Positions 6,003 to 17,050 of a stretch of DNA of 64,000 nucleotides are shown here, in pieces (the stretch's first letter is position 1; every line of letters starts with the position of its first letter). This DNA comes from a virus (Duplodnaviria > Caudoviricetes), in IMG/VR virus record IMGVR_UViG_3300010885_044304, positions 2,161 through 66,160 of that record. One strand, 5' to 3'. The notes below the pieces were generated by a model. The model was not told the origin of the DNA and did not search any database. It saw nothing but the letters and a program-made list of their open reading frames with translations. The translations under genes were made by a program, and so were the position numbers.

Positions 6003-6842
6003 ATGAGTTCTAATCCACTTGCAAAGTTTTTCAGACAACCTGCCATCTACGCACGCCTGCCCAGCGGCGGCAAGAACTGGCCTACGGGCACCATAAACAT
6101 GCCGCCCAACAGTGAACTGCCTATTCTGCCCATGACAGCCATAGACGAAATCACTTATCGCACACCCGATGCCCTGTTCAACGGCGAAGCTGTAACCGGT
6201 GTCATACAAAGTTGTGTACCCAGTATCAAGAATGCCTGGGCAACACCCAGCATTGACTTAGACACTCTATTGGTTGCCATACGTATTGCCAGCTACGGAC
6301 ACGAAATGGAGATTGGCACCAAGTGTCCCAAGTGCGGTGAAGAACACGAATTTGGTCTGGATCTGCGCACAGTGATCGACAATTTCAAGCCTGCAGACTA
6401 TGCAGCAACCTTGAAGAAAGGTGATCTGGAGTTTTATTTCAGACCCTTGAACTACAGGGAAATGACCGAAAACAGTCTCATGCAGTTTGAACAACAGAAA
6501 ACTCTGCAGCAGGTGAACGAAACAGACGGTCTGGAAGAATCTGAAAAGATGACCAGACTCAATGCCATGATGAAAAAACTTGTGGAAGTCACTGTGCGAG
6601 CCATGAGTCAGAGCATAATGGAAATACGTACACCTGATGCAGTGGTGTCAGATCGTGTGCATATTGATCAATTTCTTGCCAACTGTGAGCGTGGTATTTT
6701 CAACAGTGTGAGAGATCATGTGATTGAACTCAGAGAAAAAAGTGAGTTGAAACCGCTAGATCTCACTTGTCCTTCATGTACCAACCAGTATCAACAGACC
6801 TTTACCTTGGACATGGCAAGTTTTTTCGCAGCCGCCTCTTAG
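6003..6842 (+). CDS. gp26: Baseplate hub assembly / tail chaperone protein, T4 gp26-like
   Basis: LPSGG...LPMTAIDE...D.D.LLVAIRIASYG pattern with two CxxC pairs (CPKC, CPSC), ending in SFF; AAGGA SD; adjacent to the tape measure. Confidence 0.75.
   Translation: MSSNPLAKFFRQPAIYARLPSGGKNWPTGTINMPPNSELPILPMTAIDEITYRTPDALFNGEAVTGVIQSCVPSIKNAWATPSIDLDTLLVAIRIASYGHEMEIGTKCPKCGEEHEFGLDLRTVIDNFKPADYAATLKKGDLEFYFRPLNYREMTENSLMQFEQQKTLQQVNETDGLEESEKMTRLNAMMKKLVEVTVRAMSQSIMEIRTPDAVVSDRVHIDQFLANCERGIFNSVRDHVIELREKSELKPLDLTCPSCTNQYQQTFTLDMASFFAAAS
6821..6827 (+). other. Candidate -1 ribosomal frameshift heptamer T-TTT-TTC
   Basis: Codons AGT TTT TTC place an X XXY YYZ heptamer in the correct phase, and the -1 frame is open to 7057. 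Confidence 0.6.
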
Positions 6843-7996: not shown

Positions 7997-8332
7997 ATGG
8001 CAGACATATATCATATTTGGGCAAACAAACAAGGTGACATCACGGATATGGACTGGGTCACCAACATGCGTGGCTTCCTCCAGCAGCTGGTGGACGAGAA
8101 CAAGATGCAATCGTTTAGAATCACAAGATGCAAACTGGGGTTTCGTAGCATATCATCCATGCCAGAGTGGCATATCATGATGGAGTTTGTTGACATGGCT
8201 CAAATGGATAATGCGTTTAAACGTGTTGCTCCACTTGAAGGCGAATTGGAAACCAAACACAAATCATTCAATCAATTTGTTGGTAGTGACATCGAGCATG
8301 CGCTTTTCAGAGATTATCCTGATCAGTTATAA
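7997..8332 (+). CDS. DUF6614-like small alpha/beta protein
   Basis: IYHIW...FL..L.......FRITRCKLGF.....EWHIMMEF..MAQMD.AF...ALFRDYPD pattern; AAGGA SD. Confidence 0.55.
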   Translation: MADIYHIWANKQGDITDMDWVTNMRGFLQQLVDENKMQSFRITRCKLGFRSISSMPEWHIMMEFVDMAQMDNAFKRVAPLEGELETKHKSFNQFVGSDIEHALFRDYPDQL

Positions 8333-8374
8333 GATGAACGCAGTTCATCTGTTGTTTCGCTATCGCTCACAACA
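8332..8374 (+). terminator. Tandem hairpins at the end of the plus-strand operon (possible terminator or DNA hairpin signal)
   Basis: AGATGAAC-GCA-GTTCATCT (8-bp stem), followed by TGTTGT-ttcgctatcgctc-ACAACA. The U-tract is weak. Confidence 0.4.
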
Positions 8375-8409
8375 TTATTTCAAAATCAAGTATTGCTAAA
8401 GAGCAGTTG

Positions 8410-8790
8410 TAAGTATCTCATCTAGAACTATGAGCCACACTTAGCCCGCACAGGGCTAAGAAAATGGTCGACCTCATCTGAGTCTACTTCACCACACTGG
8501 CGTTAGAGCATTACAGAGGCGGTTGTCCGGTACCTCGAGCTCCGTCTTATACAACGGCAGTTTGTACACACACGCAGTCGTATGCACAAGCGCAGGGTTT
8601 TTCTCCCTTCCTTTTTGCTTTGTTTTATCTTTTCAAACAATCAAACCACAGCATTTTGTGATCTTCGTCCTGTTAAGGATAGTGATTGAGTGCTTCTTGC
8701 AGCGAGAAGACTTCCATCCCTGGGACTTTCGTCCAGGTTTAGGGCACCCGATGTAGACTGGTGCTGGTCGTTACTGCCGTTAGTTGCCTG
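8410..8790 (-). ncRNA. Putative large structured non-coding RNA, family not recognised
   Basis: No credible ORF. About ten nested stems on the minus strand, including a GAAA tetraloop hairpin (8719-8737), a 10-bp stem with G-U pairs valid only on the minus strand (8562-8589), a three-way junction (8638-8688) and a candidate pseudoknot. Confidence 0.65.
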
Positions 8791-9219
8791 TTAGATTTTG
8801 TTTTTTATATGTGATCCGTGGATGCGGCACTGGATGTGACCATTATAGTAGTCATCTGATTCCAGCACTCGACGTGAAAATTGTTCACGTGCTTCTACGT
8901 ATGAGCATTCAGATCGTGATTTACAGTAGTATAATATTTCGCGTTTGAAATTGTGTGTGCCTTGCTGATTGATGTCTTCTGTGAGATTGGGAGAGCTGCC
9001 GTAGTATTGTTGCCAGTCTGAGTTGATTTTGCTTCTAATTTTTTTACGTTTTTTAGTGCCATTCTTTAATTTTACTACTTTATACGTGGTCTTTGCAAAC
9101 TTTGCAAGCTTTTTGCCCACATACATCTTGCCGGTTGTAACACAAGTAATCAAGTAGACAAACCCAACACAATCATCGGGAAGTTCAGTAATCTCTTGTC
9201 CACCATAATACCAAGTCAT
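8791..9219 (-). CDS. Stand-alone GIY-YIG (Seg-like) endonuclease with a Lys-rich insertion
   Basis: GFVYLIT...GKMYVGKK, YYGSS, FKREIL, E and YYN motifs. Likely start is ATG 9219 (MTWYY), 5 nt after TAACTA. Confidence 0.85.
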   Translation of the reverse strand: MTWYYGGQEITELPDDCVGFVYLITCVTTGKMYVGKKLAKFAKTTYKVVKLKNGTKKRKKIRSKINSDWQQYYGSSPNLTEDINQQGTHNFKREILYYCKSRSECSYVEAREQFSRRVLESDDYYNGHIQCRIHGSHIKNKI

Positions 9220-9224
9220 ATGCA

Positions 9225-9230
9225 TAGTTA
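9225..9230 (-). promoter_or_regulatory. Late promoter variant TAACTA, 5 nt before the ATG
   Basis: Minus strand reads CATAACTA-TGCAT-ATG(9219). Confidence 0.55.
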
Positions 9231-9257
9231 TGACAGTAGGCCAGCAATGGCATAAAA

Positions 9258-10286
9258 TTACCATTCGGTAACATGATGCATATCTGTTAATTTATCTCTT
9301 GTACATTTTGTAGTGCATTCTAAACTATCAAATTTTAAAAATTCAGTAGACCAATATGAATCACCTATAATATCTGTAAATGTACGATTATTAAGATTAA
9401 ATTGAGTAGATGCCAAATGATGCCATACTGAATTGTGTTCATACCTGTTGGCAGTCCAGCAACAAGGATAAAATTCTCCTTGACTACTTAAAAATACACC
9501 TTTGTTACCAATTAAACAGATACCTGCCTGCTGTGTATTCTTAACAAGATCTTCTGCTCTTTGAAAATAGATTTTCTTTAGTTCCTGCCCTGGCCGTATT
9601 TTAGTTGAAAGTTGATGTTGAGTACGTTCAAATCTATGACTACTAGATACTAATTCAGTTTTGGTAGGTTCTAATAAATCATTCTTGCCATATGCCACAG
9701 GATACTTGCTGCCAAATTTAGTGCTTTTGGTTAATTGATAAAGATCAAAACCCATGCTAGATGCTAACTGTTGCTGGTAGGCAATAAAATCTTGATTAAA
9801 CCTAAATGCAATAGCGGCCCAAACTCGATAGGTAGTATAATTGTTTAAAAAAAATGTTCGAATTCCTTGTTCAATGCTGTACCAATTAGAGTTAACTCTA
9901 TATTGTTCATTGCTAGATTGATCCCATCCGTCAATACTCCAGTTAATTTCGTCATTTTCGTCAAGTGTGAGAGCCAACTCCTTCCACCAAGCAGTAGGCT
10001 TATAACTTCCGTTAGTAATAATAACCAACTGGATCATGGGATTTGTTTGTTTAAGCCAACCGCATATTTCTACAAAGTCCTTGCAATATATAGGATCTCC
10101 GTCGTTACCGCAGAATGTTATTTTTTTAATTTGTTTAACTGTGCTTTCGCCAATTTGTTCTTGAAAAAATTTAAGAGTCAATTGTCGATTCAACAGACTC
10201 TCTGGCAATTCAGCCCTGGGACACCGCGGGCACTTCAGTGTACAAATACTCGATAGTTCTATATGCCAATGATCCCAAGCTATCAC
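9258..10286 (-). CDS. Radical SAM protein with C-terminal SPASM/Twitch-like Cys cluster
   Basis: CTLKCPRC, CGNDGDP, ITNG, SIDG, YPCCW and C-terminal CTTKC; GTG start overlapping the upstream TGA. Confidence 0.85.
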   Translation of the reverse strand: MIAWDHWHIELSSICTLKCPRCPRAELPESLLNRQLTLKFFQEQIGESTVKQIKKITFCGNDGDPIYCKDFVEICGWLKQTNPMIQLVIITNGSYKPTAWWKELALTLDENDEINWSIDGWDQSSNEQYRVNSNWYSIEQGIRTFFLNNYTTYRVWAAIAFRFNQDFIAYQQQLASSMGFDLYQLTKSTKFGSKYPVAYGKNDLLEPTKTELVSSSHRFERTQHQLSTKIRPGQELKKIYFQRAEDLVKNTQQAGICLIGNKGVFLSSQGEFYPCCWTANRYEHNSVWHHLASTQFNLNNRTFTDIIGDSYWSTEFLKFDSLECTTKCTRDKLTDMHHVTEW

Positions 10287-11143
10287 AGTTGAATCTCCCT
10301 TTGCCATTGTGCATTAAAATTTGTTTTTTCTTTGTTGGTAGAACAACTTTTTTTACAAATAAGATTTGGAGTTGCAGTAGTCCATGTGGCTTTTATTAAC
10401 TCGAAGTCAGTGACAAAATTACTTTGTCTATTGCCTAACCAACAGCAGGGACTGACCCGTCCTTGAGCATCTATATAGATACTTTGATCCGCCAAGGCGT
10501 GACAATGTATTGACCCATTATTTTCACTGGGACTATACCATCCCACGGGAAATTCTAATTGATTCGGGAAAGGACGTTTACTGACTTTGGCTCGAAACCA
10601 AGTAAATCCCATGCTACGTGCTAACTGTTCCGCTGCATCAACCTGATTTTGATTGTGCCCAAATACTAACATATCCCAGTGAGCTGGACCGCCTGCATCA
10701 ATAAACGCCTGAGCATTTTTCATTAGCTTAGACCAATTGCAATTAACACGATAAATGTGATTAGTGTCCTGAAGCCCATCAATACTGAATACAACATAAT
10801 CCTGCGGTTGATTCATTATGACAGCAAGATCTTGCCACCACTCAATTCTTTGCAACGCACCATTGGTATTCATCCCCAACACAATATCAGGATTGATACT
10901 TCTGACCCAGCGATAAATTTCTAACGTATGACGTCCAGCAGCTGGATCTCCGTAGTCTCCGCACATGAACATTTTGTCTAAATTTGCAATTTGTTCAATT
11001 GAGAAATGTTGCTGTATTTGATCAACAGTAAGATGATTTTTTTGTGTTTTGTCAAATTCCGTGTCGACCTCTCTTGCACAAGCAGGACAAGCCAACTGGC
11101 AAACATCAGTGGGTTCAACATGTAATACTTTTAATTCACGCAA
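10283..11143 (-). CDS. Radical SAM protein with C-terminal SPASM/Twitch-like Cys cluster
   Basis: CQLACPAC, CGDYGDP, NTNG, FSIDG, SPCCW, CKKSC; tandem paralogue of 9258-10286. Confidence 0.85.
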   Translation of the reverse strand: MRELKVLHVEPTDVCQLACPACAREVDTEFDKTQKNHLTVDQIQQHFSIEQIANLDKMFMCGDYGDPAAGRHTLEIYRWVRSINPDIVLGMNTNGALQRIEWWQDLAVIMNQPQDYVVFSIDGLQDTNHIYRVNCNWSKLMKNAQAFIDAGGPAHWDMLVFGHNQNQVDAAEQLARSMGFTWFRAKVSKRPFPNQLEFPVGWYSPSENNGSIHCHALADQSIYIDAQGRVSPCCWLGNRQSNFVTDFELIKATWTTATPNLICKKSCSTNKEKTNFNAQWQREIQL

Positions 11144-12898
11144 TGTCTACATCCGTATTGTAACTAGTAAAACCGTTTTCTTTGACCACACGCAGAATAT
11201 TTTCCACACGCCCGGCCAGTTCGTCTCTATGACTAACCAACCAGATACTCTTGTGTCTTTCTCTACTCATCTGTTTCAGCAGTGCTAGGCTGTTTTCTAC
11301 GCCTTGTGTGTCTAGTCCACTGTCGATCATTTCGTCAATGAATAACACATTAATGGGTTGATACAGGCTTTCGAACACATCGCGGAAGGCCCAACTCATA
11401 CTTAGTATAAGTCGGTTACGCTCGCCCCTTGACAAGTTATCGAAGTCTAATTCTCTACCCAATTCCTCAATGCTCACAGTAAGATCATTTTGAAATATCA
11501 CTGTATGCGGCAAGCCAATGCGATCCAAATAGTGTGTGAGACGAGCATTTAGATAGCTAAGATTCTGTTCAATGATCTTCTTGCGTATAAAACTGTCTTT
11601 GCTGGTCAGCAACTTGAGTAAGAAGTCTTGATGATCTTGTAGGCGAGTAAGCGAATTCATTGTATCGTAAGTAACTTCCTGGAGTGCTTGATTTTGCATT
11701 TCAGCAATTTGTTCGCCGTAAGGATCTGTTTCTACCGATCGTGTTGTAAGTTCTTTGCGTAGTGCTTCTAAACTGTTGCGATGATTGAGTGCATCTTCTA
11801 GCGTGTCGTAAAATACTTGTGGTTGCAGTCCGGTCTCACCAAGATCTTCTAACTCGTTTTCTAGTTCCATGATTGCAAGACCAGCTAGGTCAACTTCGAC
11901 ACAGGCTTTATCAAATTCATCTTGTTTAGCAGCAATAATGGCGTCGTGATTTTTGTCGTGCAGATCTTGTCCGCAAGCATGACATTTATGATCTACTAAC
12001 GCAGCTAGTTCAGCCGCAATCTTATCAGCATCCTTGCGTTCGCGAGATTCGTCAAGACGAGCTCTGGCCAATGACTTGGTTGCATCGGCAAGTTCTTTAA
12101 CCAGATTGTTATATTCTGTTAGCGCCTTGTGTGCAGCAATTTCTGCATCAATATCAATATGCTCAAGACTGGCAACAGCAGATTCAAGTTTTGCAACATC
12201 CTCTGCTTGCTTAGTGATCCACATTTTTTGTCGTTTACGCAGGCTTTCAATCTGTTCTTCGATACGCTTGTTGGCTTCTTGTACAGCACGAATACGAAAT
12301 TCTTCTTGTGTAATTGAATCTTTTGTTGAACGGTTGAGGTCTTTAATTTTTTCTGCACGTTCACTCAGCATAGTAATACCCAATAGCTGTTCAATAATAG
12401 TACGCTGATCGTTGGCTTTCAAACTAAGGAAAGGTTCGGTATAGGTGTTTAAGGCCAAGATATGCTTGAACATGTCGTGGCTGAGACCCAAAGTGCGTTC
12501 AATTGTGCTTTGTGTTTCTCTTGAATCGCCCTGAGAATCATCTGTGATCTCTTGTTCGAGATTGTTGACATAAAATTTAAGCACATTAGGTTTGCGACCC
12601 CGCTCGAGGCGATACTGTTGTCCAGCAACAGAGAAGTCCAAACTGACCAACATGTTCTTGCCGTTGGTCTTGTTACTAGATTATCTTTGCGTATGTTACT
12701 GAGTGCTGTGCCATACAAGGCATAACTGAGTGCATTAATGATTGTGGTCTTACCTGTACCGTTGCGTGATCCATCGCCACCTAGGTCCAGGTTTTCGCCC
12801 AGCACCAAAGTCAAATCGCGTCGATCAAAGTCAATGCCTTGGGTAGCATTACCCACACTCATAAAATTTCGTACTGTGAGATTTTTAATTTGTATCAT
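11136..12898 (-). CDS. gp46: Recombination endonuclease ATPase subunit (T4 gp46 / SbcC-Rad50 family), split by a 1-nt frameshift near 12673
   Basis: Walker A NGTGKTT in ORF 12449-12898; zinc hook CHAC, signature LSRGE and Walker B LFIDE in ORF 11136-12653. Adding one A restores ...KDNLVNKTNGKNMLV... Confidence 0.9.
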
Positions 12899-13608: not shown

Positions 13609-14174
13609 ACGCAATTGATCCAGTTAGAAATATTCTGTGCTATAATTTGATTACCCACTTTGTCAAAATGGTTTACATTGCCACGATGTTTTTTAAATAT
13701 GTTGCTGGTATCAAGTGTTAAGTTTGGTAAATTAATACCAGCATGAAAAGTTGGAACTGTAGACATTATAGCTACAATTTTTTCATAAATCAACTGATGT
13801 ATAAATTCAGCATGTTCTAAATCAAAATATTTTTTAAAAAATTTCACTAACAATTGTTGATCTTCGAATGGCGATTGATTTTCTATATCATTATATATTA
13901 AATCACTAGCATAATGCAGTTGGGTATTTTTTAAGTACGGATGATCCTTGATGTATATACGATAAGGACTGGTGTGAAAAATTATCACTCTATCAAACGT
14001 TGACAGCTGAGCTTTTTGTATTTGTAAATAGATTTTATATTGGGAACATCCTGCTTGTGCAAGATTAGTTATATTGTGATTCTTGCTTAGAATCTGAGGC
14101 CACCCTGGATATTCTAAAACACCAGCTGCATTGTAATTGGCAGCAAAACTATCCCCACAAATTAAAATATTCAT
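13605..14174 (-). CDS. SGNH/GDSL-hydrolase-like protein
   Basis: ICGDSFA, WP..L, NLAQAGCS and C-terminal NHF...GN..IA. Confidence 0.65.
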   Translation of the reverse strand: MNILICGDSFAANYNAAGVLEYPGWPQILSKNHNITNLAQAGCSQYKIYLQIQKAQLSTFDRVIIFHTSPYRIYIKDHPYLKNTQLHYASDLIYNDIENQSPFEDQQLLVKFFKKYFDLEHAEFIHQLIYEKIVAIMSTVPTFHAGINLPNLTLDTSNIFKKHRGNVNHFDKVGNQIIAQNISNWINCV

Positions 14175-15187
14175 AGAGTCTGATATATTTGTAATAGAAG
14201 TTTTGGATCATAAAATTCGCTTTCGATGGCAGTAATCTGGTCAGTCACAATTTGGTCTACACTTTCAAATTTAATATCGCCTGGCGCCATGTCAGTCTCT
14301 ACTGAAGAATTTTTATTAGATATCAATGCCATTTCTCTAAGATTATATTGCTGTATAAAAGTGTCTTTGATATAGTTTGCTTCTTCGTAGCTGATTTCAA
14401 TATCCAATTGCACTCGCACATGCATGCGCGGTTGTAACAAATTGGCATGGTTATCGATGATCTGACTTAAATTTAATACACGATACAACGGCTGCCTTGG
14501 CCAAGCATGATATTCTGGATCACTGCCCCATTTAAGTATAGTAGCACCTCGTTGGTCGTCACCGGCGTCGGCAAAGTTATGTGGAAAACAGTTACCAATA
14601 TAGTTGATGTTGCGTTTTTGTTGGCGAAGATGAAAATGGCCGCTGAATACCTGCCCAAAATTTCCAAAGTTGTCTAATTTAAGTTCACCGTGGTCGGGCA
14701 TCTCTACCATGGCATTCATTTTAAAATGTGGAAGTTCAAAATGCCCAAACATATATTTGGCGCTCATCTTTTGAATGCGCTTGTAGTCATCTCCTACTAG
14801 CCAAGGAGCAATAACTACATCGTCTGTGTTTACAAAATCATTGCAAATTTGAATATTTGGTAAATGTCGAGCCCACTCTACGCTGTGAATATCTCTTTTG
14901 TCGCGATAATACAGGTCGTGGTTGCCAGGAATAAAGAAAAATTGATCGAACGCCTGACTTAGTCGTTCCAAGCTACGCAAACTAAAATTCATAGTTTGTA
15001 GGTTTAAACTAGCACGATGATGGTGCCAGTCTCCTAAAAAGAATCCAGTATCGCATCCTTCTTTTTTGGCCAGGTCGATAGCCCACGATACAAACTCTTC
15101 GCAGTCAGAATTATGAACCAAACTGTTTGATTTGAGTCCAAAATGTATGTCGGTAAACAGTATTGCTTTATTGAATAAATTAGCCAT
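14171..15187 (-). CDS. gp47: Recombination endonuclease nuclease subunit (T4 gp47 / SbcD-Mre11 family)
   Basis: Metallophosphoesterase motifs TDIHFG, LGDWHH, PGNHD, GHFE, SGHFH. Start placed at ATG 15187, after the promoter. Confidence 0.92.
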   Translation of the reverse strand: MANLFNKAILFTDIHFGLKSNSLVHNSDCEEFVSWAIDLAKKEGCDTGFFLGDWHHHRASLNLQTMNFSLRSLERLSQAFDQFFFIPGNHDLYYRDKRDIHSVEWARHLPNIQICNDFVNTDDVVIAPWLVGDDYKRIQKMSAKYMFGHFELPHFKMNAMVEMPDHGELKLDNFGNFGQVFSGHFHLRQQKRNINYIGNCFPHNFADAGDDQRGATILKWGSDPEYHAWPRQPLYRVLNLSQIIDNHANLLQPRMHVRVQLDIEISYEEANYIKDTFIQQYNLREMALISNKNSSVETDMAPGDIKFESVDQIVTDQITAIESEFYDPKLLLQIYQTL

Positions 15188-15194
15188 AGTAGAC

Positions 15195-15223
15195 ATTATA
15201 ATGAATTAATAAGTAGAAGTCAA
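15195..15223 (-). promoter_or_regulatory. Sigma70-type promoter TTGACT-N17-TATAAT
   Basis: Near-consensus hexamers with a 17-nt spacer; the gp47 ATG lies 7 nt after the -10 element. Confidence 0.8.
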
Positions 15224-15233
15224 CGTCTCTGAG

Positions 15234-16109
15234 TCAGCAGAATTTTTCCGTTAATGTCTGATAAAGTAGCTCGTGACTTTTTGGCCCAGGATGTAACCCA
15301 TCGGTGCCAATGTCAATTTGCCAGTCTGGCGCATAACAATATTCAGGATACCGTGTATATTGTTCCAAACAACGATGTATCATTGGAGTCAGACCGTCTA
15401 AACTGATCATGTAAAATTGACAATTACATGCTCGAAGATATTGCACGCCGTACTCGATCAAACTGATCTGATCAAACCAGAGCTGTTCATCTGTGGTGGA
15501 CAAGATTATTTCTCGGCTTAAATTTTTCAGCATAACTTCCTGCGGCCAAGTGTTTACTTGTTTTATGGTAAATCGTTCCAGTGTTGTTAATTGCCAAATT
15601 ACTATATCTCCGGGCAGTATATCTGCATGCAACAGTTGACGTAGACTCCACCGGGTGCTGCTGCCACCTTTTGCTACAGTGGTAACTGGCATGTTCAAAG
15701 AATTTCCCAATTTAGTTGAATATAAGTCATTGTTGCTGACACCAACACCCGCACTAAGGCTACAACCAAATATCCACAAAGTAGGACAGCTAGATCTACC
15801 AATAAATTGTTCTGAAAAGGTCATTGGCCCAGGCCGTGTATACCCTATAACAGTATGAGAATCGTAAATTGAATTTAAAAATATTTTTGTTTTTTCAAAC
15901 AGTTCTGCATTGTTGTCAAACCCGTCATTGACAAAAATAAATTTACAACCAACTTTGGCAATTTTCAACAAGTTACTGGCAGAGATATCCGCAAGGCTTG
16001 TATGGAAAACTCTGGAATTTCCAAGATATTGTTCAAAATTATCATTGGTTAATAAAATAGAATCTTTAGCAGCCAAATAGTGAGGACTACTTAGGATAAC
16101 TTCTATCAT
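15234..16109 (-). CDS. SGNH/GDSL-hydrolase-like protein
   Basis: IFGCSLSAGVG, VAKGGSS and C-terminal DGLHPGPKSH. Confidence 0.7.
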   Translation of the reverse strand: MIEVILSSPHYLAAKDSILLTNDNFEQYLGNSRVFHTSLADISASNLLKIAKVGCKFIFVNDGFDNNAELFEKTKIFLNSIYDSHTVIGYTRPGPMTFSEQFIGRSSCPTLWIFGCSLSAGVGVSNNDLYSTKLGNSLNMPVTTVAKGGSSTRWSLRQLLHADILPGDIVIWQLTTLERFTIKQVNTWPQEVMLKNLSREIILSTTDEQLWFDQISLIEYGVQYLRACNCQFYMISLDGLTPMIHRCLEQYTRYPEYCYAPDWQIDIGTDGLHPGPKSHELLYQTLTEKFC

Positions 16110-17050
16110 TCTTCTTCTGACACATTATATGTGTTGGGATCAATGACAGTTACAGGACCAGGCTGCTGATGTGCTCGACCAGAATTCTGTCGAGTCCACG
16201 AAGGATTGAGTCCGTTCATTTCTAAGATATCATCACGAATGTTCTGCATTTTCTTTTCGATGTTTAGAATACGAGTAAAGCTGTTGGTGATGGCAGCAGT
16301 GTAGTAAGCAAATGGGTTTTGACTTTTGGATTCATCAAACTGCAGACCAATCTGGCTCAGTTGTAGCAAGGCCTGTCCACGCATTTCCTCATTGTAGGTG
16401 TAGCCCCGCCAGTTTGAGCGTGTGGCATAGCGTTCACACAGTTTCAAAAACATGCGAGCCAGTTCGGCGGTCATGTCACCGTGGTCACGGCAGTACTCAC
16501 CTGTGACAAGATCTCCTCGCCAGTGACTCTTGCCCACCAGGTACGGTTCTTTTTCTTCTGTGATTCTGTAGTGATAAAAGGGAGGAAAGTTCACACGCAC
16601 ATGAGTGGGATCCAGCACTATCTCATCCACCAGGTCTGCCAGGGGATCTTCTACCAGCTCGTCTAATTCTAAAATTTCCTGCAGTTTTTTCTTTTTTGTT
16701 GTGGCCTTGGGTACTTTTTTGGGAGCCCAAGGTATGTGTTCCCAACAGGTAATCCTAAACACCAGATCTGTGTTGGCAATTTTCTTTTCGTTGTGAACCA
16801 CACCAGTTTCTCGCTTGAGACGATCTGCACGATTGCGCCTGGCTTCTGCTACAGTGCGTTGATTGATTTTATCCAACGACGGCAGAATAATATCATACTG
16901 ATGATCAGTTTTGGGATCTAGATATGTGCAGTATGTGTTCTTGCTTAGATGAATTTGTTTTAGTAAATCTCTGTTGTTGAGATAGTTTACTCGGGGTGGT
17001 GCCTTGGGCGGCAATGCCTTTACTGGTTTAGTTATAGGGGTATCGGACAA
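16106..17050 (-). CDS. gp55: Late-transcription sigma factor, T4 gp55 family
   Basis: NYLNN..LL, NWRGYTY.EEM, FDESKSQNPFAYYT....NSF.R....EKK; TTG start with AAGGAG SD. Confidence 0.9.
   Translation of the reverse strand: MSDTPITKPVKALPPKAPPRVNYLNNRDLLKQIHLSKNTYCTYLDPKTDHQYDIILPSLDKINQRTVAEARRNRADRLKRETGVVHNEKKIANTDLVFRITCWEHIPWAPKKVPKATTKKKKLQEILELDELVEDPLADLVDEIVLDPTHVRVNFPPFYHYRITEEKEPYLVGKSHWRGDLVTGEYCRDHGDMTAELARMFLKLCERYATRSNWRGYTYNEEMRGQALLQLSQIGLQFDESKSQNPFAYYTAAITNSFTRILNIEKKMQNIRDDILEMNGLNPSWTRQNSGRAHQQPGPVTVIDPNTYNVSEEE

What the first reader, a model, noticed from the sequence alone, without database searches (positions are those of the whole stretch)
8410..9230. Stand-alone GIY-YIG nuclease followed immediately by a ~400-nt highly structured RNA: candidate nuclease-RNA system
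Seen: the 460-nt gap after the GIY-YIG stop is by far the longest non-coding stretch in the window, and it folds extensively on the nuclease strand. Elements: GGGUGC/GCACUC (8744-8749 with 8688-8693) enclosing CCUGGAC-GAAA-GUCC(C)AGG and CUUCU/AGAAG; a three-way junction closed by CAAUCA/UGAUUG (8638-8688); AGGG/CCCU; a 10-bp stem UUGUGCAUAC/GUGUGUACAA whose G-U pairs work only on the minus strand; its loop ACUGCGU can pair with ACG(C)CAGU at 8496-8503 (pseudoknot); GAGG-UAC-CGG-ACAA-CCG-CCUC inside GAGC/GCUC; and an 8-bp hairpin (8440-8460) flanked by two YAGAUGAG motifs. Known: homing GIY-YIG enzymes usually carry a C-terminal DNA-binding region, whereas this 142-aa protein lacks one and has a very basic insertion (KTTYKVVKLKNGTKKRKKIRSK). 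TnpB/IscB show the layout of a nuclease gene with an adjacent RNA. Inference: protein and RNA, co-transcribed from the late promoter at 9225, form an RNP (guide, scaffold, packaging or origin RNA). I do not recognise the RNA family.
Basis: partly seen in the sequence, partly recalled or inferred. Interest (0 to 1): 0.85.

Follow-up and report, generated by a model that had tools for sequence, protein, structure and literature searches.

The report
Large structured phage RNA beside nuclease
A freshwater T4-like giant phage carries, right after a small conserved nuclease gene, a 360 to 440 base heavily folded non-coding RNA whose first third is a known orphan RNA family and whose function is still unknown.

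Summary
The central observation holds. Window 8333-8790 is the longest ORF-free stretch. On the minus strand it encodes a non-coding RNA of about 360 nt or more with 14 helices and 3 pseudoknots. On 44 relatives, 90.3% of cells pair against 36-43% in slid controls, and 58 of 79 pairs show compensatory changes.

The RNA is not wholly new. Positions 8635-8769 match Rfam RF01718, Polynucleobacter-1 RNA, at 111 bits against a cut-off of 37. That family has no known function. The model covers only the 5' third.

The 3' two thirds are not in Rfam. They hold a conserved pseudoknotted core and two 13-nt direct repeats flanking a hairpin. The repeats agree at four variable positions in 119 of 119 sequences, despite at least 48 changes on a tree. 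I cannot explain this.

The 142-aa GIY-YIG gene sits upstream in 101 of 112 RNA-bearing loci. But its relatives in 4 of 4 cultured phages checked lack the RNA, and two loci have the RNA without it. A nuclease-RNA particle is possible but not shown. The "late promoter at 9225" was not found.

The parts
8791..9219 (-). Stand-alone GIY-YIG nuclease-domain protein, 142 aa (SegE-type domain, no DNA-binding domain)
   Evidence: Pfam PF19835, E 6e-33, profile 1-123 of 123. PHROG 447, E 1.4e-37. AF2 model pLDDT 85. The four best VIA matches are all GIY-YIG nucleases; I-TevI catalytic domain is best at Z 7.5, rmsd 2.5 over 77 residues. Mean column identity is 81% over 28 relatives.
8783..8790 (-). Short motif (C)AGGCAA(C) just after the stop codon, 12-20 nt before the RNA's first helix; role unknown (5' end, processing site or part of the RNA)
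   Evidence: Seen by eye in most of the 23 upstream regions printed, including L138 and L095 where the upstream gene differs. It is weak or absent in L102, L013, L019, L049 and L146. No statistics were done.
8635..8769 (-). 5' domain = Rfam RF01718 Polynucleobacter-1 RNA. My labels: helices P1-P6 plus a 3-bp pseudoknot PK0 (8767-8769 with 8756-8758)
   Evidence: cmscan 111 bits against gathering 37, E 3e-23, model positions 1-141 of 141. Helices are 74-100% paired with compensatory changes. One copy per genome.
8609..8634 (-). A-rich linker between the two domains
   Evidence: Read from the sequence and alignment A1. Variable in length; no pairs assigned.
8562..8608 (-). P7 hairpin (8594-8608) and 10-bp hairpin P8 (8562-8589). 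The P8 loop (8573-8578) forms pseudoknot PK1 with 8496-8502
   Evidence: All 10 of 10 P8 pairs and all 6 of 6 PK1 pairs have changes on both sides; PK1 is 93% paired. P7 exists in two length forms, so only 60% of cells pair in this alignment.
8505..8557 (-). Conserved pseudoknotted core: P9 (8551-8557 with 8520-8526) crosses P10 (8539-8543 with 8505-8509) and P11 (8533-8535 with 8517-8519). It holds the near-invariant 17-mer at 8518-8534
   Evidence: Strongest covariation in the RNA, top mutual-information pairs 8542-8506, 8541-8507 and 8553-8524. P9 is 97.7%, P10 90.5% and P11 100% paired. The core is kept in variant B RNAs.
8471..8495 (-). Unit 1: GUGG (8492-8495), variable 8 nt (8484-8491), twin element m1 (8471-8483)
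8440..8460 (-). Hairpin P13 between the twin elements (8 bp)
   Evidence: 90.3% paired; 3 pairs with changes on both sides. Replaced by other stable hairpins in variants B and C.
8415..8439 (-). Unit 2: UGUGG (8435-8439), variable 7-8 nt (8428-8434), twin element m2 (8415-8427)
   Evidence: m2 agrees with m1 at four variable positions in 119 of 119 sequences. The GUGR-to-UCU spacer is 8 nt in 130 of 146 modules.
8332..8373 (-). Possible 3' extension: hairpin 8351-8373 (stem, GA/GAA internal loop, 2 bp, 4-nt loop), then hairpin 8332-8350, which reads as a terminator for the convergent + strand gene
   Evidence: The hairpin shape recurs after m2 in many relatives, seen by eye, with one covarying pair 8366-8359. 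The terminator-like site is on the + strand. Whether the RNA reaches this far is not known.

Best explanation
The stretch is a gene for a large, compactly folded non-coding RNA of a clade of uncultured freshwater T4-like giant phages. Related complete genomes are 344-347 kb.

Where it sits. It lies at the 3' end of the minus-strand unit: gp55-like sigma, gp47-like, gp46-like, radical-SAM genes, GIY-YIG. It abuts convergent structural genes, so no gene lies downstream on its strand. It is therefore not a 5' leader.

How it is built.
- The 5' third is the orphan Rfam family Polynucleobacter-1. This part is exchangeable: related phages carry other 5' domains.
- The constant part is the 3' region. 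It has a pseudoknotted core followed by two single-stranded 13-nt elements, each preceded by GUGR and about 8 variable bases, on either side of a hairpin.

How I think it works (inferred, not shown). The RNA acts in trans. The folded body presents the two elements as twin recognition sites for one and the same partner. The two elements differ from each other only by transitions (CUC against UCU, G against A). Both could therefore pair with one G/U-containing strand, so I lean to a nucleic-acid partner. That would make the RNA a twin-seed regulator or a decoy. A dimeric protein is not excluded.

The GIY-YIG gene is its constant neighbour and probably shares its transcript. It is not shown to be its partner.
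For: SHOWN
- RF01718 match at 111 bits.
- 79 pairs are 90.3% paired against 36-43% in slid controls; 58 pairs have compensatory changes; 0 of 500 shuffles reach any measure.
- No conserved reading frame: the longest sense ORFs have a median of 38 aa and scattered starts in 119 sequences.
- One copy per genome.
- Genes downstream are convergent.
- The 5' domain is exchangeable. RF01718 is absent from the whole of a 100%-complete variant-B genome that keeps the core and the twin elements. Rfam finds nothing in variant B or C loci.
- Twin elements: 119 of 119 agree at each of four variable positions, with at least 19, 7, 11 and 11 changes on a tree built from the rest of the RNA.
- The neighbouring CUC/UCU difference is always kept, which argues against gene conversion.
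- A twin-motif pattern hits 0 times in 1.19 Mb of unrelated DNA and once in the window.
- No stems close the elements, so they are probably single-stranded.
- RNA-library contigs from four lake or freshwater runs of four studies cover the RNA. Three contigs cross the stop codon into it. This is weak support, because DNA may be present in such libraries.

INFERRED
- Action in trans, a common partner, and the wobble argument.
Against: - No partner was found. There is no complementary third site in the RNA.
- The one U/G-rich stretch near 8631-8641 that can pair with both elements does not co-vary and is partly used in helix P4.
- In two complete genomes and one partial genome the 13-nt motif, read with wobble, occurs only at the two elements, with no reverse-complement copy.
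- If the partner paired through U, changes of A to G would need no matching change in the second element. The strict agreement is therefore not really explained.
- RNA ends, abundance and stability are unknown, because only assembled contigs were available.
- Very tight linkage to the nuclease gene fits the RNP rival as well.
Confidence: 0.5

Rival explanations
1. Nuclease-RNA particle. The 142-aa GIY-YIG protein has no DNA-binding domain. It binds this RNA, which would guide it, scaffold it or hold it in check. The twin elements and the variable 8-mers would be the specificity part.
For: - Adjacency on one strand in 101 of 112 RNA-bearing loci (8 of the other 11 are cut short), usually 6-85 nt apart. 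Conversely the RNA follows the gene in 74 of 80 loci.
- The protein is only a nuclease domain with a basic beta-hairpin.
- It is more conserved than its gp46-like neighbour, for example 75% against 51% in L036, with 81% mean column identity. That is unlike a selfish homing enzyme.
- In L138 a different nuclease (PDDEXK_15, E 5.6e-30) sits in the same place, 20 nt before the RNA.
- RNA-library contigs bridge the stop codon.
Against: - All these loci also share gene order, so linkage may be synteny.
- Homologues in 4 of 4 cultured T4-like phage genomes have no RF01718 match and no nhmmer match. Three have little or no space after the gene: 28 nt, an overlapping gene, or an abutting convergent gene. 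Melnitz has a 148-nt gap.
- L167 has the RNA with no nuclease within 1.6 kb upstream.
- An ORF is inserted between gene and RNA in several loci.
- The variable letters share less information with GIY-YIG residues (at most 0.40 bit) than with gp46-like residues (up to 0.72 bit).
- The protein is nearly invariant while the elements changed at least 48 times.
- No target for a guide was found.
Confidence: 0.2
2. DNA-level reading. The conserved RNA gene is a landmark beside which free-standing nuclease genes settle, as homing endonucleases do in T4. The direct repeats would act as DNA, as a cleavage, recombination or replication site.
For: - Two unrelated nuclease families occupy the same slot, GIY-YIG and PDDEXK_15.
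- The slot accepts other insertions: radical-SAM genes before the gene, ORFs after it.
- Strict identity of two direct repeats is what a recombination or iteron-like site would need.
Against: - The GIY-YIG gene is near-universal and highly conserved in the clade, not sporadic.
- It has no DNA-binding domain.
- The surrounding sequence shows RNA-type covariation with G-U pairs on one strand only.
- The CUC/UCU difference is wobble-neutral only in RNA.
- No contig joins m1 to m2 (table 5).
- No GC-skew turn lies here.
- In a complete genome with terminal repeats the locus is at 195.6 of 346.9 kb, far from the ends.
Confidence: 0.1
3. Self-processing RNA or ribozyme. The pseudoknotted core cuts, or directs cutting, at the two identical elements and releases the roughly 56-nt hairpin piece.
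For: - A compact, highly conserved multi-pseudoknot core.
- Two identical sites in single-stranded context flank a hairpin.
Against: - No ribozyme family matched, even at E up to 10.
- No internal guide complementary to the elements was found.
- Contigs cross both elements (records 4 and 13), although contigs cannot show ends.
Confidence: 0.07
4. Cis-acting element only: a 3' UTR that ends or stabilises the operon mRNA, or, as Weinberg et al. tentatively labelled the motif in 2010, a 5' cis-regulator.
For: - It sits at the end of a transcription unit facing convergent genes.
- Table 1 of PMC2864571 marks the motif 'cis-reg? y' (passages read).
Against: - In the window no same-strand gene follows. 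The only ORF there, 45 aa at 8503-8640, overlaps covarying helices and is not conserved.
- About 360 nt with three pseudoknots and co-varying twin elements is far more than an end structure needs.
- L167 has the RNA behind an opposite-strand gene.
Confidence: 0.08

Closest known systems
Polynucleobacter-1 RNA motif (Rfam RF01718; Weinberg et al. 2010, PMC2864571)
   Same: Window 8635-8769(-) matches the whole model at three times the gathering score. The habitat fits: the paper's table lists 'Burkholderiales, fresh water/estuary'.
   Different: The model covers only the 5' 135 nt of an RNA of 360 nt or more. Here it is phage-borne, follows a gene rather than preceding one, and is replaced by other 5' domains in sister phages. 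The one full-text search found only this paper.
Large orphan structured RNAs often found in phages or prophages (GOLLD, ROOL, HEARO, OLE) - recalled, not tested
   Same: Size of several hundred nt, many covarying helices and pseudoknots, phage association, no known function when found.
   Different: No Rfam match to any of them at E up to 10 over 8200-9300. The twin co-varying direct repeats are not a feature I know from those RNAs.
IscB/TnpB with their omega/re-RNAs (RNA-guided nucleases with an adjacent RNA)
   Same: A small nuclease gene next to a conserved structured RNA on the same strand.
   Different: The nuclease is GIY-YIG, not RuvC/HNH. The protein family exists without the RNA. No guide-target match was found. 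The locus is a fixed syntenic site in a phage, not a mobile element.
I-TevI / T4 Seg homing endonucleases and T4 endonuclease II (DenA)
   Same: GIY-YIG fold: Z 7.5 to the I-TevI catalytic domain and 4.3 to T4 EndoII. Pfam SegE-type domain. EndoII is likewise a small stand-alone GIY-YIG enzyme (134-residue chain). In Bellamy the gene follows nrdA and nrdB; that this is where T4 has denA is recalled.
   Different: No DNA-binding domain as in I-TevI or Seg. No sequence match to any solved chain at E below 0.09. Near-universal and highly conserved in the clade rather than sporadic. Orthology to denA is not shown.
Small RNAs with repeated identical recognition sites (duplicated seeds; CsrB/RsmZ-type protein sponges) - recalled
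   Same: Two copies of one short single-stranded motif on a structured RNA, one next to a terminal hairpin.
   Different: The motif is not the GGA of CsrA sites in 50 of 119 sequences, which have AGA. No target or protein is known.

Membership tests
Rfam RF01718 Polynucleobacter-1 RNA | Covariance-model score above the curated gathering score over the full model | tested here: met
   111 bits against 37, E 3.2e-23, model positions 1-141 of 141, minus strand.
Rfam RF01718 Polynucleobacter-1 RNA | Model helices kept by compensatory changes in relatives | tested here: met
   P1 99%, P3 92%, P4 99% and P6 86-100% paired, with changes on both sides; P2 74%.
Rfam RF01718 Polynucleobacter-1 RNA | Position upstream of a coding region (the authors' tentative cis-regulatory label) | tested here: not met
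   No same-strand gene follows. The next genes are convergent. The 45-aa ORF inside the RNA is not conserved.
GIY-YIG nucleases (Pfam PF19835 SegE_GIY-YIG) | Profile match above the cut-off | tested here: met
   114.1 bits against 25, E 6e-33.
GIY-YIG nucleases (Pfam PF19835 SegE_GIY-YIG) | GIY-YIG fold | tested here: met
   The four best VIA matches are GIY-YIG enzymes: Z 7.5, 5.9, 4.9 and 4.3. Foldseek alone gave no match at E 0.001 or below.
GIY-YIG nucleases (Pfam PF19835 SegE_GIY-YIG) | Catalytic Tyr (GIY), Tyr (YIG), Arg, Glu, Asn | tested here: inconclusive
   Y22, Y33, E104, E109 and N126 are invariant in 28 sequences. Their mapping onto I-TevI catalytic residues rests on my recall, not on a residue-level superposition.
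Free-standing homing endonucleases (T4 Seg type) | C-terminal DNA-binding domain joined to the nuclease domain | tested here: not met
   142 aa; the Pfam domain spans residues 18-144 of the 157-aa ORF and nothing else matches.
Free-standing homing endonucleases (T4 Seg type) | Sporadic presence among close relatives | tested here: not met
   Present upstream of the RNA in 101 of 112 RNA-bearing loci; 8 of the other 11 are cut short upstream. 81% mean column identity.
RNA-guided nuclease systems (IscB/TnpB type) | Nuclease gene with an adjacent conserved structured RNA | tested here: met
RNA-guided nuclease systems (IscB/TnpB type) | RuvC (and HNH) nuclease | tested here: not met
   Only a GIY-YIG domain.
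RNA-guided nuclease systems (IscB/TnpB type) | A variable guide at one RNA end that matches a target | tested here: inconclusive
   Variable 8-mers and co-varying twin elements exist at the 3' end. No matching site was found in two complete genomes and one partial genome. Host genomes are unknown.
RNA-guided nuclease systems (IscB/TnpB type) | RNA accompanies the protein across the protein family | tested here: not met
   0 of 4 cultured phage genomes with a homologue have the RNA.
Physical RNP of this protein and this RNA | Direct binding | not testable with these tools
   The complex predictor takes proteins only. No RIP data.

The most novel reading that the evidence does not exclude
The RNA and the domain-only GIY-YIG nuclease form a new kind of nuclease-RNA particle. 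The twin 13-nt elements, with their adjacent variable 8-mers, would be a programmable double recognition module that aims or gates the nuclease. This would be the first RNA-directed GIY-YIG enzyme. The swap to a PDDEXK nuclease in one phage would then be a change of effector on the same RNA.
Probability: 0.12. Interest if true: 0.9.

Novelty: new variant of a known kind. Interest (0 to 1): 0.62.

Why it matters
- Large, intricately folded RNAs of unknown function are rare, and past examples have led to new biochemistry.
- This work turns a 135-nt orphan Rfam motif of unclear origin into a defined gene of giant freshwater T4-like phages. It triples the gene's length and shows which part is constant (core plus twin elements) and which is exchangeable (the Rfam part).
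- The twin elements show an unusual signature. Two direct repeats changed together at least 48 times without one discordant case in 119 sequences. That points to a shared partner and gives a sharp experimental handle: mutate one copy, then both.
- If the partner is the neighbouring nuclease, it would be a new class of RNA-dependent nuclease. If it is a host molecule, it would be a new phage take-over device.

Tried and rejected
SEARCHES THAT FOUND NOTHING USEFUL
- blastn of 8300-9300 against cultured phages: no match.
- tRNA/tmRNA scan of the window: none.
- The other Rfam rows at E up to 10 score 13-16 bits against cut-offs of 38-75; I take them as chance.
- PDB sequence search: nothing below E 0.09. 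Foldseek against PDB: nothing at E 0.001 or below.
None has the RNA by nhmmer, so all look like chance matches. This does not show absence from bacteria.
- GC skew: no feature at the locus.
- The core of the window's own twin elements, searched as an 11-nt motif with one mismatch allowed, is not enriched elsewhere in the window: 6 matches against 7.2 expected. My first pattern was mis-typed and hit only m2.

STRUCTURAL IDEAS FOR THE TWIN ELEMENTS THAT FAILED
- A helix between the two variable 8-mers: real -1.02 against cross-paired -0.83 kcal/mol, p 0.92. It exists only in one sub-clade, by eye.
- A helix between var1 and the stretch after m1: p 0.18.
- Stems closing either element into a loop: mean 2.10 against 1.92 bp, and 1.76 against 1.80 bp.
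- A complementary third site in the RNA: none by mutual information or by independent contrasts. Changes in the P7 loop track the elements loosely and look phylogenetic.
- Pairing of m1 with m2, or an m2 palindrome: it fits some letters but does not require the agreement seen (by hand).
- Co-evolution with GIY-YIG residues: none beyond phylogeny.

READINGS CONSIDERED AND DROPPED (from the sequences)
- Translational bypass, as in T4 gene 60, with take-off and landing codons. The letters read as a sense codon plus UGA or UAA. But no ORF leads in (an in-frame TGA lies four codons upstream in the window), and the landing site is again followed by a stop.
- Mini-ORFs from the GUG. Many relatives have an in-frame UAA inside the 8-mer.
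- CsrA sites. 50 of 119 sequences have AGA, not GGA.
- K-turn or box C/D. The GA is lost in some haplotypes.
- A hammerhead in the hairpin at 8351-8373. The core is incomplete and Rfam gives no hit.
- The GAAAGUCC in P2, which resembles RNase P CR-I. It is not conserved in relatives.
- The GIY-YIG replacing Mre11. A gp47/SbcD-like gene is present at 14171-15196.

RNA RUNS
- 16 runs from 13 studies hold part of the stretch, 11 of them on record as RNA, with word shares of 0.05-0.30.
- Only assembled contigs could be laid, so starts, ends, strand and level are unknown.
- There is no cover beyond 9228, and no contig joins m1 to m2. I draw no conclusion from either.

NOT USED OR NOT AVAILABLE
- Complex prediction was not used, because it takes proteins only.
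- The supplements of PMC2864571, which describe the motif, could not be read.
Full report
WHAT IS THERE

The window is part of a 66,160-base IMG/VR virus record rated 19% complete. Its genes are T4-like. They include a baseplate hub at 6003-6842 and, on the minus strand, in this order:
- a gp55-like late sigma factor (16106-17050);
- a gp47/SbcD-like gene (14171-15196);
- a gp46/SbcC-like gene;
- two radical-SAM genes (9258-11143);
- the ORF 8791-9219.

Related contigs reach 343,632 bases (99% complete) and 346,856 bases (100% complete, with terminal repeats), so this is a clade of giant T4-like phages. Downstream of 8791 the next genes (DUF6614, 7997-8332, and others) are on the plus strand, that is, convergent. 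With ORFs of 80 aa or more, 8333-8790 is the longest internal ORF-free stretch at 458 nt; the next is 166 nt.

THE PROTEIN

The ORF from the ATG at 9219 gives 142 aa, and relatives match residues 1-142.
- It is a GIY-YIG domain and nothing else: Pfam PF19835 SegE_GIY-YIG, E 6e-33, profile 1-123 of 123; PHROG 447, E 1.4e-37, which carries the odd label 'NAD synthetase'.
- An AlphaFold model from 28 relatives has pLDDT 85.
- Against about 48,000 solved chains the four best matches are all GIY-YIG nucleases: I-TevI catalytic domain Z 7.5, PD-T4-3 5.9, UvrC N-domain 4.9, T4 endonuclease II 4.3.
- Y22, Y33, E104, E109 and N126 are invariant in 28 sequences, and mean column identity is 81%.
It is part of the family profile, not an insertion.

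The family is widespread. tblastn finds it in 454 cultured phage records, all below 60% identity. They are mainly cyanomyoviruses, plus Methylophilales phage Melnitz (48.5%, the closest), Sinorhizobium phiM12-like phages, Acidovorax ACP17 and others.

THE RNA

Rfam places 8635-8769 on the minus strand in RF01718, Polynucleobacter-1 RNA, at 111 bits against a gathering score of 37, over the full model. The only paper my one full-text search found is Weinberg et al. 2010. Its Table 1 rates the motif:
- 'RNA? y' (probably);
- 'cis-reg? y' (probably);
- 'switch? ?' (ambiguous);
- taxa 'Burkholderiales, fresh water/estuary'.
I read passages only. The supplement that discusses the motif was closed.

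The motif is only the 5' third of what is conserved. An nhmmer profile built from the window's 8400-8775 finds homologous sequence over about 365 nt. On an alignment of 44 sequences with median identity about 60%, I drew a structure of 79 pairs. The labels P1-P13, PK0 and PK1 are mine. The counts are:
- 90.3% of cells pair, against 36.5-43.2% when the 3' partners are slid by 1-3 columns;
- 58 pairs have changes on both sides;
- the covariation score is 0.425, against at most 0.091 when slid;
- 0 of 500 shuffles reach any measure.

Three helices are pseudoknots:
- PK0: 8767-8769 with 8756-8758.
- PK1: the loop of the 10-bp hairpin, 8573-8578, with 8496-8502.
- P9: 8551-8557 with 8520-8526. It crosses P10 and P11 and contains a near-invariant 17-mer.

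No reading frame is conserved. The longest sense-strand ORFs have a median of 38 aa and start at scattered places in 119 sequences.

By energy alone the fold is only modestly better than shuffles: z -2.19 on the minus strand and -1.33 on the plus strand.

- GGGUGC/GCACUC has no covariation and is 75% paired.
- The CGG/CCG hairpin is invariant and overlaps the covarying P9.

THE TWIN ELEMENTS

After PK1 the RNA has two similar units on either side of hairpin P13:
- Unit 1: GUGG, 8 variable bases, then m1 (8471-8483).
- Unit 2: UGUGG, 7-8 variable bases, then m2 (8415-8427).

In a mutual-information scan of 119 distinct sequences, most top pairs are Watson-Crick partners. Several, though, are identity pairs 56 nt apart.

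At four variable positions the two elements carry the same letter in 119 of 119 sequences. On a tree built from the rest of the RNA these positions changed at least 19, 7, 11 and 11 times.

The three letters just before are always CUC in m1 and UCU in m2, and position 12 is mostly G against A. The copies therefore differ only by transitions. A conversion tract that always spares the neighbouring three bases is unlikely, so selection for identity is the better reading.

I found no reason for it inside the RNA or the phage:
- No complementary third site.
- No closing stems.
- No helix between the variable 8-mers.
- No link to GIY-YIG residues beyond phylogeny.
- In two complete genomes and one partial genome, no further copy or reverse complement of the 13-mer read with wobble.

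A pattern that asks for the twin arrangement hits 0 times in 1.19 Mb of unrelated bacterial DNA, 0 times in the four cultured-phage loci and once in the window.

VARIANTS

Some sister phages have another RNA after the same gene.
- Variant B (L014, L015, L034, L047, L055, L067, L071) keeps the core 17-mer and the twin elements around a different hairpin, but has another 5' domain.
- Variant C (L026, L028, L029, L031) keeps the twin arrangement only.
- Rfam finds nothing in these loci.
- RF01718 is absent from the whole 100%-complete variant-B genome. Three variant-A records have one copy each.

So the Rfam domain is exchangeable and the 3' module is the constant part.

LINKAGE TO THE NUCLEASE

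Loci picked by the protein. One search found 584 relatives and kept the best 80, at 67-97% identity.
- 69 have the RNA by nhmmer.
- 5 more have variant RNAs.
- 5 loci end within 282 nt of the gene.
- 1 (L072) has an ORF after the gene and then ends.

Loci picked by the RNA's 17-mer.
- 112 have the RNA.
- In 101 the gene lies upstream on the same strand.
- 8 are cut short upstream.
- L111 has only 563 nt upstream. It is from the same contig as L019, where the gene lies about 1,050 nt before the RNA.
- L138 has a PDDEXK_15 nuclease instead, ending 20 nt before the RNA.
- L167 has no nuclease within 1.6 kb.
The two sets share some contigs, so they are not independent.

All these phages also share gene order, so the linkage may be synteny. 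In the cultured phages Melnitz, phiM12, Bellamy and ACP17 the homologue has no such RNA:
- Three have little or no space after the gene: a 28-nt gap, an overlapping gene followed by tRNA genes, or an abutting convergent gene. Melnitz has a 148-nt gap.
- There is no RF01718 match in 0 of 4 whole genomes.
- There is no nhmmer match.

EXPRESSION

Sixteen public runs hold part of the stretch; 11 are RNA libraries from lake or freshwater samples. In the four I laid, contigs cover the RNA, the nuclease gene and the convergent gene. Three contigs cross the stop codon: 8513-8822, 8661-8944 and 8748-8973. This fits co-transcription, but contigs show neither ends nor strand, and DNA may be present.

There is no TATAAATA in the window and no sigma-70-like site on the minus strand between 9219 and 9260.

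VERDICT

- The object is a member of a known orphan RNA family, but in a much larger form than the family model describes. It belongs to giant freshwater T4-like phages.
- Most likely it is a trans-acting structured RNA whose business end is the twin-element module. This is inferred, with confidence about 0.5.
- An RNP with the neighbouring GIY-YIG nuclease remains a live but unproven rival (about 0.2).
- The strict co-variation of the two direct repeats is unexplained and is the most interesting lead.

Noticed in passing
window 11139-12898 (-): The gp46/SbcC-like gene is in two frames. Residues 1-79 of an intact 592-aa homologue (L138) match 12898-12668, and residues 78-591 match 12674-11139 in another frame. 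This could be a frameshift, an assembly error or a programmed shift.
   Followed up: partly
window 9258-11143 (-) and loci L001-L080: Zero to two radical-SAM genes lie between the gp46-like gene and the GIY-YIG gene, and the number varies among close relatives. The slot is a variable-gene hotspot.
   Followed up: partly
L138:8819-9385: A 188-aa PDDEXK_15 phage endonuclease (E 5.6e-30) takes the place of the GIY-YIG gene, ending 20 nt before the same RNA.
   Followed up: partly
L026/L028/L029/L031 and L014/L015/L034/L047/L055/L067/L071, downstream of the GIY-YIG gene: Variant RNAs with other 5' domains and no Rfam match keep the twin elements. They look like unnamed relatives of RF01718-bearing RNAs.
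   Followed up: partly
window 8351-8373 (-): A hairpin with a GA/GAA internal loop, a 2-bp stem and a 4-nt loop recurs after the RNA in many relatives. It superficially resembles a hammerhead core but is incomplete.
   Followed up: no
whole window: No TATAAATA in 64 kb (2.5 expected by chance), although a gp55-like late sigma factor is encoded at 16106-17050. Late promoters of this clade may differ from T4's.
   Followed up: no
window 8790 (table 4): RNA-library contigs of relatives carry 23 extra bases just after the GIY-YIG stop codon, at the site of the (C)AGGCAA(C) motif.
   Followed up: no
L201 (Synechococcus phage Bellamy) 2971-5253: In this cyanophage the homologous GIY-YIG gene follows nrdA and nrdB and is followed by a cluster of tRNA genes. 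This is a different stable-RNA neighbourhood for the same protein family.
   Followed up: no
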